Both the position numbers and the translations under genes were made by a program. Shown one piece after another: positions 46,646-52,703 of a stretch of 64,000 nt of DNA; within the stretch, counting starts at the first letter, position 1; the number at the start of each line of letters is the position of its first letter. The notes under the pieces were generated by a model that had not been told where the DNA came from, did no database searches, and saw nothing but the letters and a program-made list of their open reading frames with translations. The stretch is from Promethearchaeia archaeon (GTDB lineage: Archaea; Asgardarchaeota; Lokiarchaeia; Sigyniarchaeales; SOKP01): assembly GCA_029856155.1 (NCBI GenBank), contig JAHQWL010000085.1, positions 29,846-93,845 on the forward strand, written 5' to 3'.

Positions 46646-47854
46646 ATGTCAGATAATAGTGGAAAGAGTTTAGCAATTAAGGATTTCTTCAAAAGGAACG
46701 TTCTTATTAATGATCTTGAAGAGGTTTTGAGATTTAAACCCGATACATTAATAGGTGTTGATAAAATTAGTTCGGATCAATTATTTGATAAAGGAATAAA
46801 AACAATTGAGGATTTAGCTAACTTGTCTGTCGCAAATCTCCCCGAAATAAAAGAAATACTACCAAGTATGCTACAAAAATGGGTGAAAATTGCACAGGTA
46901 ATTCAAAAGAATGTTAAAGAACAATTGAGGAGACATAAAAAATTATTAATGATCGGTTTAGATAATGGTGGTAAAACATCTATACTTGCAGTAGTTCAAG
47001 ATAAATTCTCAATTATTAAATCTCTTTTACCCACAAGGGGTGTAAAGAGGGAAAAGCTTGATTTTTTTGGGTATCCAATAATTTCATGGGACTTAGGAGG
47101 TCAAGTCCAGTATCGAGAAAAACTGTATTTTAATCGACCAGAGCTTTTTTTCACTGAAGCTGATATTATGCTATATGTTGTCGATAGTCAAGATCCAGAT
47201 AGAATTCCTGAAGCCGCTAATTATTTTCGGGAGGTTTTAAAAGTATTAGAAGAGCTTCACGAAATACCTCCAGTTTTAATAGTTTTAAGCAAAAGTGATC
47301 AAGATGCTCGTAAAACACTTCAATGGCAACAAACTGTAACAAGTATAAAAAATAAATTCAATAGTATTGTTCAGGAATTTGAAGAATTTTCAATTGATTA
47401 CTGCGATACGACGATTTTTCAAAGAGAAAGTATCATGCAAATGTTCAGTACTGCATTAAAGAAAGTATCTGACACCTCTGAAATAATAGAAAATATCCTC
47501 GAGGAGTTCACACATCAAGTAGAGGGAAAAGCTTCAAGTTTAGTTTCAATGGATGGTCTTATTTTCGGTAGTTATACTGGATCTGATACAGATGAAATGC
47601 TAGTAAATAACACAGCTTTATTACTACAAACGCTTTCAAATTTTTATAATTCAATAGGTTTAATAAGAGAAAAATCTATAAGACTAGATTTACCACTTAA
47701 TGGATTTACAATTCGAGGTGAAAAATTATTTGAGTACTCTGAATTGCAGATTCCTGTATATTTATGGATGCTTTCTCAAAATCCAGAATTGTTAGAGGGA
47801 AAAATCGAATACTTTAAAGAGCAATTACTTCCGTTGATTAATCTTTTCCTATAA
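46646..47854 (+). CDS. Arf-like small GTPase with N-terminal HhH and C-terminal roadblock/longin-like domain
   Basis: LIGVD..GIKTIEDLA; GLDNGGKTS, PTRG, WDLGGQ, SKSD; C-terminal SLVSMDGLIFGS. Confidence 0.85.
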   Translation: MSDNSGKSLAIKDFFKRNVLINDLEEVLRFKPDTLIGVDKISSDQLFDKGIKTIEDLANLSVANLPEIKEILPSMLQKWVKIAQVIQKNVKEQLRRHKKLLMIGLDNGGKTSILAVVQDKFSIIKSLLPTRGVKREKLDFFGYPIISWDLGGQVQYREKLYFNRPELFFTEADIMLYVVDSQDPDRIPEAANYFREVLKVLEELHEIPPVLIVLSKSDQDARKTLQWQQTVTSIKNKFNSIVQEFEEFSIDYCDTTIFQRESIMQMFSTALKKVSDTSEIIENILEEFTHQVEGKASSLVSMDGLIFGSYTGSDTDEMLVNNTALLLQTLSNFYNSIGLIREKSIRLDLPLNGFTIRGEKLFEYSELQIPVYLWMLSQNPELLEGKIEYFKEQLLPLINLFL

Positions 47855-48348: not shown

Positions 48349-50760
48349 TTAAGTTCTACACAATCTTTTTAAGAGTGTAGGATCTATTATTTCTTTTGGC
48401 GTCCAACCTTTTTCCTTTAGGTACTCGTGAATTTCATCTTTCATGTTAATAGGAATGTCTGCCTCAACACGTACAAATTTCTCTAAGTCATTGGGAAATT
48501 GGACACCTTTGTATTTTTTCTCTAAATCAATCCAATGAGAAAGTTTAATCATTCTTCCTTTAGAGTTATCTGCAGGTCTTAAACATAATTTTGCTGCTAG
48601 ACAAATAGCTTGTTCAATACTTTCAGCAGTAGTTAATAAATGTTCTGGACCTGGACCAACTAAATGATCTGAGGTGCCATCTCTAGCATTCCATACTTTC
48701 CATGTATTTTCATCATCAGATCTGCCAATATACATACGTCTATATTCTGCTGAATGAGGTCCACATATTGCTGGTATTCCCATACCATTACAGCTACTGG
48801 CAATACTAGCGGCTTTTTGAGACATTGCACCCCAAGCAACTCCACAAGCACCTACACGGTTCAAAACATAATCCGCAATTTCCTCATAGTTACCTCGTAA
48901 TGGACGTCTAGCAAAAATATTAGCAACTTTTATTGCTGCCCCATTAATATGTGGGTTTGAAACGCATGAACCAACATTTACTAACCCTCCCCTATCAAAA
49001 TCACCGGGATATCTATCATAAAGTGTTTTACCATCTTCATCCTTTACAAGCCCTATATCCATAGCTCCGCAACCAGATACAACCACAATATAATTTCTTC
49101 TACAAAACTCTTCAGCCATTATATATAATTCTTGTATTTCTTTAGCATAATTAGCACAACCAATAATTGCAATGATTCCAGGAATTTCGCCTAAGACTAT
49201 GGGAGCTCCAACATTGCGAATTTCTGTGTCCATAATTGGACCGCGACCCGCTCTCATATTAAATTTTTCATTTCTAATCTTTTCACGTCCAGCGTACATT
49301 ATGAGAGTAAGAGGTGACACATTTTTCATACAATCTGATTCGCATCTTCCGCAATCTAAGCATTGATCAAAAACATCAGTCAATACTGAAAAATCACCAT
49401 CTTTTACCCTATTTACTCCTTCTACTAATGGTAAATCATTTGGACAATTTCTTTGACAGTTTCCACATCCATTGCAGTTCATTGCCATATCAATACAGCC
49501 TTTTTCATCAGGAACTGCACTTTTAGATTTTCTAATTGGTTTTACTTTAATGGCCGTTTCAACAGCAACTTTTCCTGCTTTTATTGGATCTAATATTAAT
49601 ACTCCATCAACTTTTCCACTGACTAAATCATCAATAATTTCTTCTGCAGGGTCATCTGTTCTATTAGGTAACCCTCCCATATTTTTTTCATTAGTCGCTA
49701 TAAACGGAGCATTTACGAGCTTTGCTTGCTCATAAGTACGTAAATGAACACATTGTTCATCTACCATAACAACATCAGCTAATCCAGAACGTATATAAAA
49801 CATCTGTCGAGCTAGTGAGCCAACAATCTTCGCACCATCAAAATATCTTGTCAAATCTATTGCAGTGCAACAAATTGCTCCCACATCTACCTTATCTTCA
49901 TAAGCCTTTTCCCTCATATAATCCACTAGTTCGATTCCTGGTGCTACGTTATGTCCAATCATTAAAATTGTTGCTTTATTTTCAGTATCCAGTGTACCCA
50001 TTCCTAATTCAATAATAGGAACGTCTGGTTCCCCCATAGGAAACCCGTAGGCAGAAATCTGAGCTGCATCAGATATTTCCATACCAACAGCATCTGCACA
50101 ACCTGCTAAAAATGCTTTCGCTTCATAATCAAGATAGCTAGATTCTTGCCCTGTATGCCCTGAGGCAAGAAGATGCGTAATCGTATAATGTACCCATTCC
50201 ATTGCGGTTTCCAAATCTTCTAAAGTTTCTGGTTTCATGCCAACAATTAATCGTGTACAAGGCATTTCAACCTCTATATTAGTTCCAAAATTTATTGGGA
50301 CATTACCATATTTCTCTTTAAGCCAGTGGAGCAGATGGTCACCATGAGCACTATGACATGATGCACCAATACAACAAGCAATTTCTACGATTTTTGCACA
50401 TGCAGTCTCCAGATTTATTCCGCATGCCCCAGTTCTGCCCTTGGAAAGGTTACATTTACCGAAAGTGCAATTACCCTTATAAAAGCTATGTTTTATAAGT
50501 TAAACAGCACATGTCACAAATTTGCCCATACTTTCTCTAAATGAAAGAATGCTTGGCATGTAAAACGGTTTGTACCTTTCCATGAGCTTGAAGAACCAAT
50601 TACGTAATGTAGGGATATGGGGCATCATCGTTGGGCCAATGGGTTCCCACTCTGTTTCGTCTCCATAACTTACTTTACCAGTGGTTAATTCAAATCCCTT
50701 GATTGTACCGAGTGGTCCTTTATATTCATCAATTTTAATTTTAGCTCCTCTTTTTTCCAT
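48349..50760 (-). CDS. cdhA: CO dehydrogenase/acetyl-CoA synthase alpha subunit, interrupted by two candidate BHB introns; exons 50760-50553, 50520-50501, 50469-48349 (782 aa spliced)
   Basis: WEPIGPT, RYKPFYMP, reconstructed ICDMCCLCTFGKC...GACG, CHSAHG, IGHNV, ICCTAIDL, two ferredoxin-type motifs, GCANY, GSCVSN, WGAMSQKA. Confidence 0.93.
50470..50500 (-). other. Candidate BHB mRNA intron 2 in cdhA (31 nt)
   Basis: ACUUAUAAAACAUAGCUUUUAUAAGGGUAAU; 9-bp inner stem, central helix UGUU/GGUA, bulges UA^A and AU^U, outer helix GUGC/GCAC; excision gives TGT TTA|TGC ACT TTC (C-L-C-T-F). Confidence 0.82.
50521..50552 (-). other. Candidate BHB mRNA intron 1 in cdhA (32 nt)
   Basis: GCAUUCUUUCAUUUAGAGAAAGUAUGGGCAAA; central helix UGCC/GGCA, bulges AA^G and AA^U; excision gives ATG CCA A|TT TGT GAC (M-P-I-C-D). 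Confidence 0.8.
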
Positions 50761-50947
50761 ATTTCAATTCACATTATTTATAGTTTGATTTTTTTTTGAT
50801 TTTTTAATATTTGATTATAATTAGAGTTATATTAGATTTTATTTTAATTATTATATTCCAAAACTCAAAATCTAATCTATATTAATTAAAAAAAGTGTGA
50901 AATTTCACTCAATATTGTATAATATAAAAAATAGAGAGAAATAAACT

Positions 50948-51704: not shown

Positions 51705-52703
51705 CTAGGAAGAGATCAAATCTAAAATCGCTGGAATTATATAATCGATATTATAATTGGTTTTTACTGAAGTAAATAATAATTTCCATCTTCGATCTTT
51801 TATTTTGTTTAAATTAAAAAATTCTGAAATTTCTCTTTTTAAGGTGTGAAATTCTTTTTTATAGGATTCCTTAGCATTTATGACTAAATCAGTTTTATTG
51901 CATATTAATAGTAATGGGACTGCTCTTAATTCATTGTTATTTATTACATTCCAAAACTCTTTTTTAGATTCCTCAAATCTTCTTTGATTAGCAATATCGA
52001 TCATATAAATAATAATGTTAGAATCTTGAAGCCCTATCAACCATCTTGATCTGAAAGTTTTTTGTCCCGGCATATCCCAAACCGCAAATAGCCCTTTTTC
52101 TTCTGCAGGTATATATTCAATGTTGAATTTTCGTGTTGAAGTAAAGAAATTATCGTTAAACTTACCAGTTTTTAACCGTCTTACTAAGCTAGATTTTCCA
52201 ACTTCATCAATACCAAAGAGGAAGACTTTGAAAAATGTATCTCTTTGATAATAATATTCAATTTCTGGAGGTTTTTCGATAACCTCCTCATAAAATCTAC
52301 GAATATCAATAAACATAGAAATTAGTAAATTTTCAATTTCGATTTCATCATTAAAGGAATATTCATTGCCATTTATCAATAATTCATTCAATAATTCCTT
52401 AAAGATATCCTTATAGTCGTAAGGGTTATCTTCATTATCAAAAATTAAACCGATTATAATTTTTCTATTAACACAGGAAGTATATATATTCAAATCATCG
52501 ATAAATTGAGCAATAGGTTCATCCATTTTAAAATGATTTGATGTTGATTTCGGAATAACATCTACATTGTCATGTTCTTTTATAATTTTATTAACAAGGA
52601 TTTTATCATTAATATTAATAATTTCATTAGGATAACAATAAATATTTAGATCTTCTAAATCTCGAATTTCATTTCCTTTGAATAAAAAGATGTTATGTAA
52701 CAA
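51705..52703 (-). CDS. Arf-like small GTPase with N-terminal longin-like domain
   Basis: GIDEVGKSS, WDMPGQ, CNKTD, TSVK; N-terminal alpha/beta domain (IIIGLIFDNEDNPYDY). Confidence 0.85.
   Translation of the reverse strand: MLHNIFLFKGNEIRDLEDLNIYCYPNEIININDKILVNKIIKEHDNVDVIPKSTSNHFKMDEPIAQFIDDLNIYTSCVNRKIIIGLIFDNEDNPYDYKDIFKELLNELLINGNEYSFNDEIEIENLLISMFIDIRRFYEEVIEKPPEIEYYYQRDTFFKVFLFGIDEVGKSSLVRRLKTGKFNDNFFTSTRKFNIEYIPAEEKGLFAVWDMPGQKTFRSRWLIGLQDSNIIIYMIDIANQRRFEESKKEFWNVINNNELRAVPLLLICNKTDLVINAKESYKKEFHTLKREISEFFNLNKIKDRRWKLLFTSVKTNYNIDYIIPAILDLISS

What the first reader, a model, noticed from the sequence alone, without database searches (positions are those of the whole stretch)
50470..50552. 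Two tandem bulge-helix-bulge introns in a protein-coding gene (cdhA) of a probable Asgard archaeon
Seen in sequence: cdhA is split into an 86-aa ORF and a 638-aa ORF. The sense strand reads ...TAC ATG CCA A[GCATTCTTTCATTTAGAGAAAGTATGGGCAAA]TT TGT GAC ATG TGC TGT TTA[ACTTATAAAACATAGCTTTTATAAGGGTAAT]TGC ACT TTC GGT AAA TGT. Removing the 32-nt (50552-50521) and 31-nt (50500-50470) inserts restores YMPICDMCCLCTFGKC and an uninterrupted 782-aa protein. Each insert is a hairpin that pairs with its exons to form a 4-bp helix between two 3-nt bulges. Insert 1: UGCC/GGCA, bulges AAG and AAU, outer helix only 1 bp or register-shifted. Insert 2: UGUU/GGUA with G-U pairs, bulges UAA and AUU, outer GUGC/GCAC, inner 9-bp stem. 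Established: the archaeal splicing endonuclease EndA cuts after the second nucleotide of each BHB bulge and RtcB ligates. Applying that rule gives the frame-restoring junctions at all four cut sites. BHB introns are known mainly from tRNA and rRNA; crenarchaeal cbf5 is the classic mRNA case. Inference: these are spliced mRNA introns in a Wood-Ljungdahl enzyme. Such genes would be mis-annotated as pseudogenes, and the finding bears on the origin of eukaryotic non-spliceosomal mRNA splicing.
Basis: partly seen in the sequence, partly recalled or inferred. Interest (0 to 1): 0.97.

Follow-up and report, generated by a model that had tools for sequence, protein, structure and literature searches.

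The report
Two tRNA-type introns split Asgard cdhA
The only gene for the CO-dehydrogenase subunit CdhA in this Loki-type Asgard archaeon is broken by two tiny inserts (32 and 31 bases) shaped like tRNA introns; comparison with about 95 related genes indicates they are cut out of the mRNA, a kind of splicing published for only one archaeal protein gene (cbf5).

Summary
Removing window 50552-50521 (32 nt) and 50500-50470 (31 nt) from the minus-strand cdhA joins three pieces into a 782-aa protein. Its Cys-rich motif is identical to that of intact Asgard orthologues.

Both inserts fold as bulge-helix-bulge (BHB) motifs, and the standard cut rule gives the protein-restoring junctions.

Across 96 related loci I found 22 distinct inserts at six positions, all in the first 345 nt of the gene.
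- **Helix at the junction:** the 4-bp BHB helix is 4/4 paired in 16 and 3/4 in 6, against 3 of 330 fully paired in shifted registers.
- **Carriers are live genes:** all 19 carriers examined are otherwise intact, and dN/dS is 0.02-0.13.
- **Structure is selected:** stems covary, close relatives lack the inserts precisely, and carriers keep a long exon-exon clamp helix.
- **Host context:** cdhA is single copy. The genome encodes two EndA paralogues and RtcB, and has similar inserts in psmA, AMP phosphorylase, Roadblock and uL11.

No RNA data could be obtained, so splicing is inferred rather than observed. This scan has already flagged and followed up the same phenomenon in other Asgard genomes. 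In print, only crenarchaeal cbf5 is a confirmed case. Confidence is about 0.9.

The parts
50553..50760 (-). cdhA exon 1 (ATG at 50760; 208 nt, ends in phase 1 inside the Ile codon)
   Evidence: TIGR00314 profile positions 4-62
50521..50552 (-). intron 1, 32 nt, BHB. Central helix 50558-50555 with 50526-50523; bulges 50554-50552 and 50522-50520; inner stem of 8 bp with one mismatch
50501..50520 (-). exon 2, a 20-nt micro-exon. It carries the 3' outer-helix strand of BHB1 (50518-50514), and the 5' outer-helix (50510-50507) and central-helix (50506-50503) strands of BHB2
50470..50500 (-). intron 2, 31 nt, BHB. Central helix 50506-50503 with 50475-50472; bulges 50502-50500 and 50471-50469; 9-bp inner stem 50499-50491 with 50484-50476; outer helix 50510-50507 with 50468-50465
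48349..50469 (-). cdhA exon 3 (706 codons plus stop)
   Evidence: TIGR00314 profile 69-761, 966 bits
50566..50582 (-). 5' arm of a long-range exon1-exon3 clamp helix that encloses both BHB motifs
50442..50461 (-). 3' arm of the exon1-exon3 clamp helix

Best explanation
The two inserts are archaeal bulge-helix-bulge introns in the cdhA pre-mRNA.

Proposed mechanism: the transcript folds so that each intron hairpin, together with exon sequence, forms a 4-bp helix flanked by two 3-nt bulges. A longer exon1-exon3 helix clamps the whole 83-nt region. The splicing endonuclease EndA, which here has two paralogues as in the broad-specificity (alpha-beta)2 type, cuts after the second nucleotide of each bulge. 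RtcB then joins exon 1, the 20-nt exon 2 and exon 3. Only the spliced mRNA encodes the Fe-S-binding Cys motif and a full 782-aa CdhA.

Shown: the anatomy, its conservation and covariation, selection on the gene, and the presence of the enzymes.
Inferred: cleavage, ligation, and their timing relative to translation.
For: 1. Removing the inserts restores the frame and the exact conserved motif.
2. I found 22 non-identical inserts at six positions in orthologues. At the protein-correct junction the central helix is 4/4 paired in 16 and 3/4 in 6. In shifted registers it is 4/4 in 3 of 330 and 3/4 in 47 of 330.
3. Covariation supports the stems. At site 2, 94.7% of cells are paired against 36-57% when the partner is slid, and 4 pairs are compensated. 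At site 1, 88.9% are paired, 12 cells are compensated, and 0 of 500 shuffles reach this.
4. All 19 carrier loci examined become intact 781-783-aa frames after removal.
5. dN/dS between carriers is 0.02-0.13, the same as for intact pairs.
6. Same-genus genomes G003, G006 and G008, and loci L002, L003 and L049, lack exactly these 31 and 32 nt. Independent assemblies carry them.
7. Exon flanks between the clamp arms differ at 1 of about 80 nt between the window and L004, although the genes differ at 19% overall and the introns themselves have diverged. A strong clamp is present in 12 of 13 carriers of sites 1, 1b and 2 against 13 of 72 others. In independent pairs about 6 go the same way and 0 the other, median p 0.03.
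8. cdhA is single copy and CdhC is intact.
9. There are two EndA paralogues; the best solved match of one is the Aeropyrum alpha subunit. There is one RtcB. Asgard EndA is reported as (alpha-beta)2 with the L1 loop (PMC5829648).
10. The same genome has BHB inserts in AMP phosphorylase (profile 1-165 and 167-500), psmA, Roadblock (2 TAA inside the match) and the single-copy uL11.
Against: - There is no RNA evidence.
- The central helix of intron 2 has one Watson-Crick and three G-U pairs.
- Intron 1 has either a 1-bp outer helix or a 4-nt 3' bulge, which is a relaxed motif.
- Six of the 22 inserts have one mismatch in the central helix.
- My genome-wide ORF-fusion scan showed no enrichment over decoys shifted by 1-2 nt. 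The genome-wide extent therefore rests on individually checked genes.
- All sequences come from metagenome assemblies.
- The clamp threshold was chosen after seeing the data.
Confidence: 0.9

Rival explanations
1. cdhA is a decaying pseudogene and the inserts are disruptive junk, for example small palindromic mobile DNA that is not removed from the RNA.
For: The gene is split into two ORFs with a stop and frameshifts. Public annotation calls truncated proteins.
Against: There is no other lesion in any of 19 carriers. dN/dS is 0.02-0.13 between carriers. The gene is single copy and its partner CdhC is intact. The inserts persist while synonymous sites saturate (dS above 1.3). The stems covary. 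Essential single-copy genes such as uL11 carry the same kind of insert.
Confidence: 0.03
2. The ribosome skips the inserts by translational bypassing or hopping, as at T4 gene 60 or in yeast mitochondrial byps, or by programmed frameshifts, without RNA splicing.
For: The inserts are short, contain hairpins and carry stops near their 5' ends.
Against: There are no matching take-off and landing codons at either insert: CCA and UUA have no usable in-frame match at the 3' ends (read). Junction 1 lies inside a codon. What is conserved across six sites is the BHB geometry with exon-intron pairing, not codon matches.
Confidence: 0.03
3. The inserts are an assembly or sequencing artefact.
For: The genome is a metagenome-assembled genome of 104 contigs with 5.7% contamination.
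Against: The same two inserts are in the nearest species genome G005 and in L001, with one pairing-preserving change. Homologous inserts are in more than 15 independent assemblies from different studies.
Confidence: 0.01

Closest known systems
BHB intron in the cbf5 (pseudouridine synthase) pre-mRNA of Crenarchaeota (Watanabe 2002; Yoshinari 2006; Yokobori 2009, PMC2738675)
   Same: A short intron inside an archaeal coding sequence. It has a BHB or relaxed BHB fold with cuts between the second and third bulge residues. It is linked to hetero-oligomeric EndA and is gained and lost patchily among relatives.
   Different: The gene (cdhA), the phylum (Asgard) and the number differ. Here two introns sit in tandem around a 20-nt exon. 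There are six positions in one gene across lineages and an exon-exon clamp helix. Other genes of the same genome are also interrupted. Splicing of cbf5 was shown by cDNA; here it is inferred.
Non-canonical and multiple BHB introns of Asgard tRNA genes (Valentin-Alvarado 2024, PMC11291895; bioRxiv 10.64898/2026.10.13.758758)
   Same: The same motif and presumably the same enzymes. Sizes are similar: ARAGORN-45-nt introns in most of the 14 intron-bearing tRNAs it finds here. The introns depend on exon sequence to build half of the motif.
   Different: The host RNA is an mRNA, so the exon half of the motif is also constrained by coding. Neither paper text holds 'mRNA', and their only 'protein-coding' mention concerns genes neighbouring tRNA loci.
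Unconventional cytoplasmic splicing of HAC1/XBP1 mRNA (IRE1 cut, RtcB or Trl1 ligation)
   Same: Non-spliceosomal, protein-only endonuclease cuts at paired stem-loops in an mRNA, followed by tRNA-ligase joining. The intron shifts the frame.
   Different: The endonuclease is IRE1 rather than EndA, and the substrate is twin 7-nt loops rather than BHB. That system is regulated by stress; regulation here is unknown. This comparison rests on my own knowledge and the review PMC13149111.
Translational bypass elements (T4 gene 60; mitochondrial byps)
   Same: Short non-coding gaps with hairpins inside ORFs.
   Different: They need matching take-off and landing codons and act at the ribosome. Those features are absent here.

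Membership tests
Archaeal BHB (EndA-type) intron | [quoted passage not shown] | tested here: met
   Intron 2 has UGUU/GGUA with bulges UAA and AUU. Intron 1 has UGCC/GGCA with bulges AAG and AAU; the 3' bulge is 4 nt in the minimum-energy fold.
Archaeal BHB (EndA-type) intron | Cuts after the second bulge nucleotide give a functional junction | tested here: met
   The predicted junctions restore the frame and the exact conserved motif. This holds for all 22 inserts at six sites, against 3 of 330 fully paired helices in shifted registers.
Archaeal BHB (EndA-type) intron | Flanking helices h (exon-exon) and h' (intron) of at least 2 bp | tested here: met
   Intron 2: h 4 bp, h' 9 bp. Intron 1: h' 8 bp with one mismatch; h is 1 bp with a 3-nt bulge or 5 bp with a 4-nt bulge, so it is a relaxed form. 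There is also a 16-bp clamp.
Archaeal BHB (EndA-type) intron | Structure maintained by compensatory change | tested here: met
Archaeal BHB (EndA-type) intron | Host encodes the splicing endonuclease and RtcB ligase | tested here: met
   Two PF01974 ORFs of 198 and 202 aa and one RtcB.
Archaeal BHB (EndA-type) intron | Intron is excised and exons ligated in RNA | not testable with these tools
Group I / group II self-splicing intron | Catalytic RNA core of hundreds of nt matching Rfam models | tested here: not met
   The inserts are 31-32 nt, and there is no Rfam match at E<=1 in 50200-50900.
Translational bypass element | Matching take-off and landing codons flanking the gap | tested here: not met
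   Read directly from the sequence; no in-frame match at either insert.

The most novel reading that the evidence does not exclude
The cdhA 5' region may be a hotspot of a dynamic mRNA-intron system in Asgard archaea.

Observations: BHB micro-introns have been repeatedly gained, moved between sites a few nucleotides apart, and precisely lost. The site-2 and site-3 introns are homologous (z = 5.4). All six positions fall in the first 15% of the gene, which resembles the 5' bias of intron-poor eukaryotes.

Further speculation: exon synonymous sites co-evolve with the introns to build a clamp helix. Splicing could then gate translation of CODH/ACS, because unspliced mRNA yields only an 86-aa peptide. 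That would make this a regulated, HAC1-like switch rather than passive baggage.
Probability: 0.25. Interest if true: 0.93.

Novelty: new variant of a known kind. Interest (0 to 1): 0.85.

Why it matters
Published work confirms EndA-type splicing inside an archaeal coding sequence for one gene family only, cbf5 in Crenarchaeota. The 2009 paper says there was no confirmation for any other gene (PMC2738675). My literature searches found nothing on Asgard mRNA introns.

Here a central Wood-Ljungdahl enzyme of an Asgard archaeon needs two such splices 20 nt apart, and core genes of the same genome are interrupted in the same way. This has three consequences.
- **Annotation:** Asgard gene calls and metabolic reconstructions are biased, because such genes are recorded as truncated or as pseudogenes.
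- **Biology:** the closest prokaryotic relatives of eukaryotes process mRNAs by cutting and rejoining, despite coupled transcription and translation.
- **A tractable system:** it offers six sites, a clamp helix, precise losses and a 5' bias for studying how protein-gene introns arise, persist and are lost.

Tried and rejected
- **Genome-wide ab initio scan** for a BHB hairpin plus ORF fusion: hits at the true geometry were no more frequent than at decoys shifted by 1-2 nt (for example 265 against 273-289). The scan is dominated by gene-boundary hairpins and chance ORFs in a 30% GC genome. It also misses real cases with weak inner stems (uL11) or tandem introns (cdhA itself). I drew no genome-wide count from it.
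- **Rfam:** no match.
- **ARAGORN on the window:** no tRNA.
- **AIR-synthase-like gene at C44:81452-81481:** only the downstream exon hit a family, so continuity is unproven.
- **The two window introns as copies of one mobile element:** similarity between site-1 and site-2 introns is weak (mean z 1.3). Their shared 3' ends are explained by pairing to similar UG-rich exon strands. Only site 2 and site 3 look homologous.
- **Recent lateral transfer of an intron cassette** as the reason for identical exon flanks in the window and L004: rejected because the introns between those flanks have diverged.
- **Other readings:** bypassing, frameshifting, artefact and pseudogene are treated under rival explanations.

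Full report
**Observation.**
On the minus strand, cdhA appears as an 86-aa ORF (50760..50500) and a 638-aa ORF (50265..48349); the second frame is open back to 50469. Deleting 50552-50521 (32 nt) and 50500-50470 (31 nt) yields a 2349-nt frame and a 782-aa protein.

The NCBIfam cdhA model TIGR00314 matches the first piece at profile positions 4-62 and the third piece from position 69, with 966 bits. This leaves room for exactly the six residues of the 20-nt middle exon. The joined motif, YMPICDMCCLCT[FY]GKC, is identical to that of dozens of intact 782-783-aa homologues named Promethearchaeota or Lokiarchaeota. Junction 2 is unique. Junction 1 is ambiguous over three positions because of an AA repeat.

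**Structure.**
The 151-nt region folds at -42.4 kcal/mol, z = -4.15, with 0 of 200 shuffles as stable. The minimum-energy fold contains both hairpins with their exon-intron helices at the same time. It also contains an outer helix that pairs exon 1 (50582-50566) with exon 3 (50461-50442).
- Intron 2 is a canonical hBHBh' motif, but its central helix is weak (one A-U and three G-U pairs).
- Intron 1 has a strong central helix (UGCC/GGCA). Its outer helix is 1 bp with a 3-nt bulge, or 5 bp with a 4-nt 3' bulge.

**Relatives.**
I collected 96 related Asgard cdhA loci from species genomes, metagenome contigs and the contigs behind truncated database proteins. A gapped DNA comparison with an intact reference found inserts of 29-34 nt in 20 of the 85 full-length loci. 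They sit at six positions, which I number by order of discovery rather than by position:
- codon about 46 (site 4);
- the Pro|Ile junction (site 1);
- one nucleotide further on (site 1b);
- Asp|Met (site 3);
- Leu|Cys (site 2);
- codon about 115 (site 5).

One locus has three inserts. No insert lies beyond nucleotide 345 of the 2349-nt gene.

For 22 non-identical inserts I placed the junction by the protein alone and then asked whether BHB geometry fits there. The central helix is 4/4 paired in 16 and 3/4 in 6. In the 330 non-equivalent registers within 8 nt, at the same length, it is 4/4 in 3 and 3/4 in 47.

Stems covary.
- At site 2, 94.7% of cells are paired, against 36-57% when the partner is slid, with four pairs changed on both sides.
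- At site 1, 88.9% are paired, with 12 compensated cells and 0 of 500 shuffles as high.

**Live gene, not a wreck.**
After removing the inserts, all 19 carrier loci examined give intact 781-783-aa frames. dN/dS between carriers is 0.13 (window-L001), 0.07 (L004-L055) and 0.02 (L026-L098). This matches the intact pair L002-L003 at 0.075.

cdhA is single copy in this genome, and CdhC is intact. Same-genus genomes G003, G006 and G008 align collinearly through cdhA and lack exactly these 31 and 32 nt, while the nearest species G005 has both. Loci L002, L003 and L049 (93-94% protein identity) carry the precise spliced junction in their DNA.

**Selection on exon RNA.**
Between the window and L004 the spliced genes differ at 19% of sites and dS is about 1.3. 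Yet the roughly 80 nt from the 5' clamp arm to the 3' clamp arm differ at one position, while the introns between them have diverged. Intron 1 is unalignable and intron 2 differs at 5 of 31 positions. In contrast, the close but intron-free L002 has its differences from the window concentrated in this same segment.

A strong exon1-exon3 duplex (at or below -13.6 kcal/mol) occurs in 12 of 13 carriers of sites 1, 1b and 2, and in 13 of 72 other rows. Over phylogenetically independent pairs, about 6 go the same way, 0 the other and 2 tie, with a median sign-test p of 0.03. L097 keeps the clamp through compensating synonymous changes on both arms. The threshold was chosen after seeing the data, and the tree is a FastTree, so I treat this as supportive and not decisive.

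**Evolution.**
On the CdhA tree the carriers are scattered. Site 1 has 8 carriers and needs at least 7 changes; site 2 has 7 carriers and needs 7 changes. Introns at one site are homologous across distant carriers (mean z 3.9-8.6). One cross-site pair, site 3 against site 2, is also similar (z = 5.4). Many precise losses, some relocation, or short-tract recombination are all possible. I cannot separate them.

**Machinery and context.**
The genome has two EndA-domain ORFs. The 198-aa ORF on C13 has the Aeropyrum pernix catalytic subunit chains 3P1Z_B and 3AJV_B as its best solved relatives. The 202-aa ORF on C52 is closest to 1A79. There is one RtcB. Kaneta et al. report that Asgard archaea have the (alpha-beta)2 EndA with the L1 loop that confers broad specificity (PMC5829648).

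ARAGORN finds only 28 tRNA genes in this 97%-complete genome, and 14 of them have introns. This suggests many further interrupted tRNAs.

**Other genes in the same genome.**
Leads came from first-stage notes. I checked the following myself.
- AMP phosphorylase has a 30-nt insert at C98:57026-57055. TIGR03327 matches profile 1-165 before it and 167-500 after it, and the BHB central helix is 4/4.
- The proteasome alpha subunit at C1 is split into profile 1-98 and 95-189, with a 29-nt BHB that restores the conserved motif.
- One of 12 Roadblock genes has a 30-nt in-frame insert with two TAA codons and a 4/4 BHB helix.
- The only uL11 gene has its N-terminus in three pieces.
- TFS and RpoN matches stop short of the end of their profiles. 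I did not resolve their junctions.

My own ab initio scan could not give a genome-wide count.

**Literature and earlier scan results.**
The searchable library holds cbf5 as the only confirmed case of BHB splicing inside an archaeal coding sequence. The 2009 paper states this explicitly. The papers on Asgard tRNA introns do not treat protein genes. Other searches found nothing closer.

This scan has flagged the same phenomenon in many other Asgard genomes. Some follow-up agents report exactly spliced environmental RNA for other genes. I did not check those claims, and they are not evidence for this locus.

**Verdict.**
These are two tandem BHB introns in the single cdhA gene, very probably removed by EndA and RtcB (confidence 0.9). 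The missing piece is direct RNA evidence.

Noticed in passing
G000 C98:57026-57055 (outside the window): A 30-nt BHB insert lies inside AMP phosphorylase. The TIGR03327 profile runs 1-165 before it and 167-500 after it. Central helix UAGC/GUUA, 9-bp inner stem.
   Followed up: yes
G000 C1:10074-10102; C72:106002-106031; C44 about 135.94-136.05 kb; C25 about 12765; C14 about 57530: The proteasome alpha subunit, one Roadblock/LC7 paralogue, the single-copy uL11 (two inserts), TFS and RpoN all appear interrupted by inserts of about 30 nt. BHB geometry and the restored motif were verified for psmA and Roadblock only.
   Followed up: partly
whole genome G000: ARAGORN finds only 28 tRNA genes, 14 with introns, in a 97%-complete genome. 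Many tRNA genes are probably hidden by non-canonical or multiple introns.
   Followed up: no
related loci L001-L137, nt 1-345 of cdhA: All six intron positions found in 96 loci lie in the first 15% of the gene, mostly on UG-rich Cys codons. None lies in the remaining 2000 nt.
   Followed up: partly
L026/L098/L131 (site 3) versus window 50470-50500 (site 2): Introns at two sites 12 nt apart are about 65% identical with compensated stem changes (z = 5.4). This suggests an intron moved or was copied between neighbouring sites.
   Followed up: partly
window 46646-47854 (+) and 51705-52703 (-): cdhA is flanked by ORFs of 402 and 332 aa that look like small GTPases. The equivalent 402-aa neighbour in L103 carries Arf, Gtr1/RagA and Roc Pfam hits.
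   Followed up: no
public protein databases (P0001, P0002, P0055, P0079, P0109 and others): CdhA entries of 675-723 aa are N-terminally truncated gene calls, some starting inside an intron. They come from intron-bearing loci and are evidence of systematic mis-annotation.
   Followed up: yes
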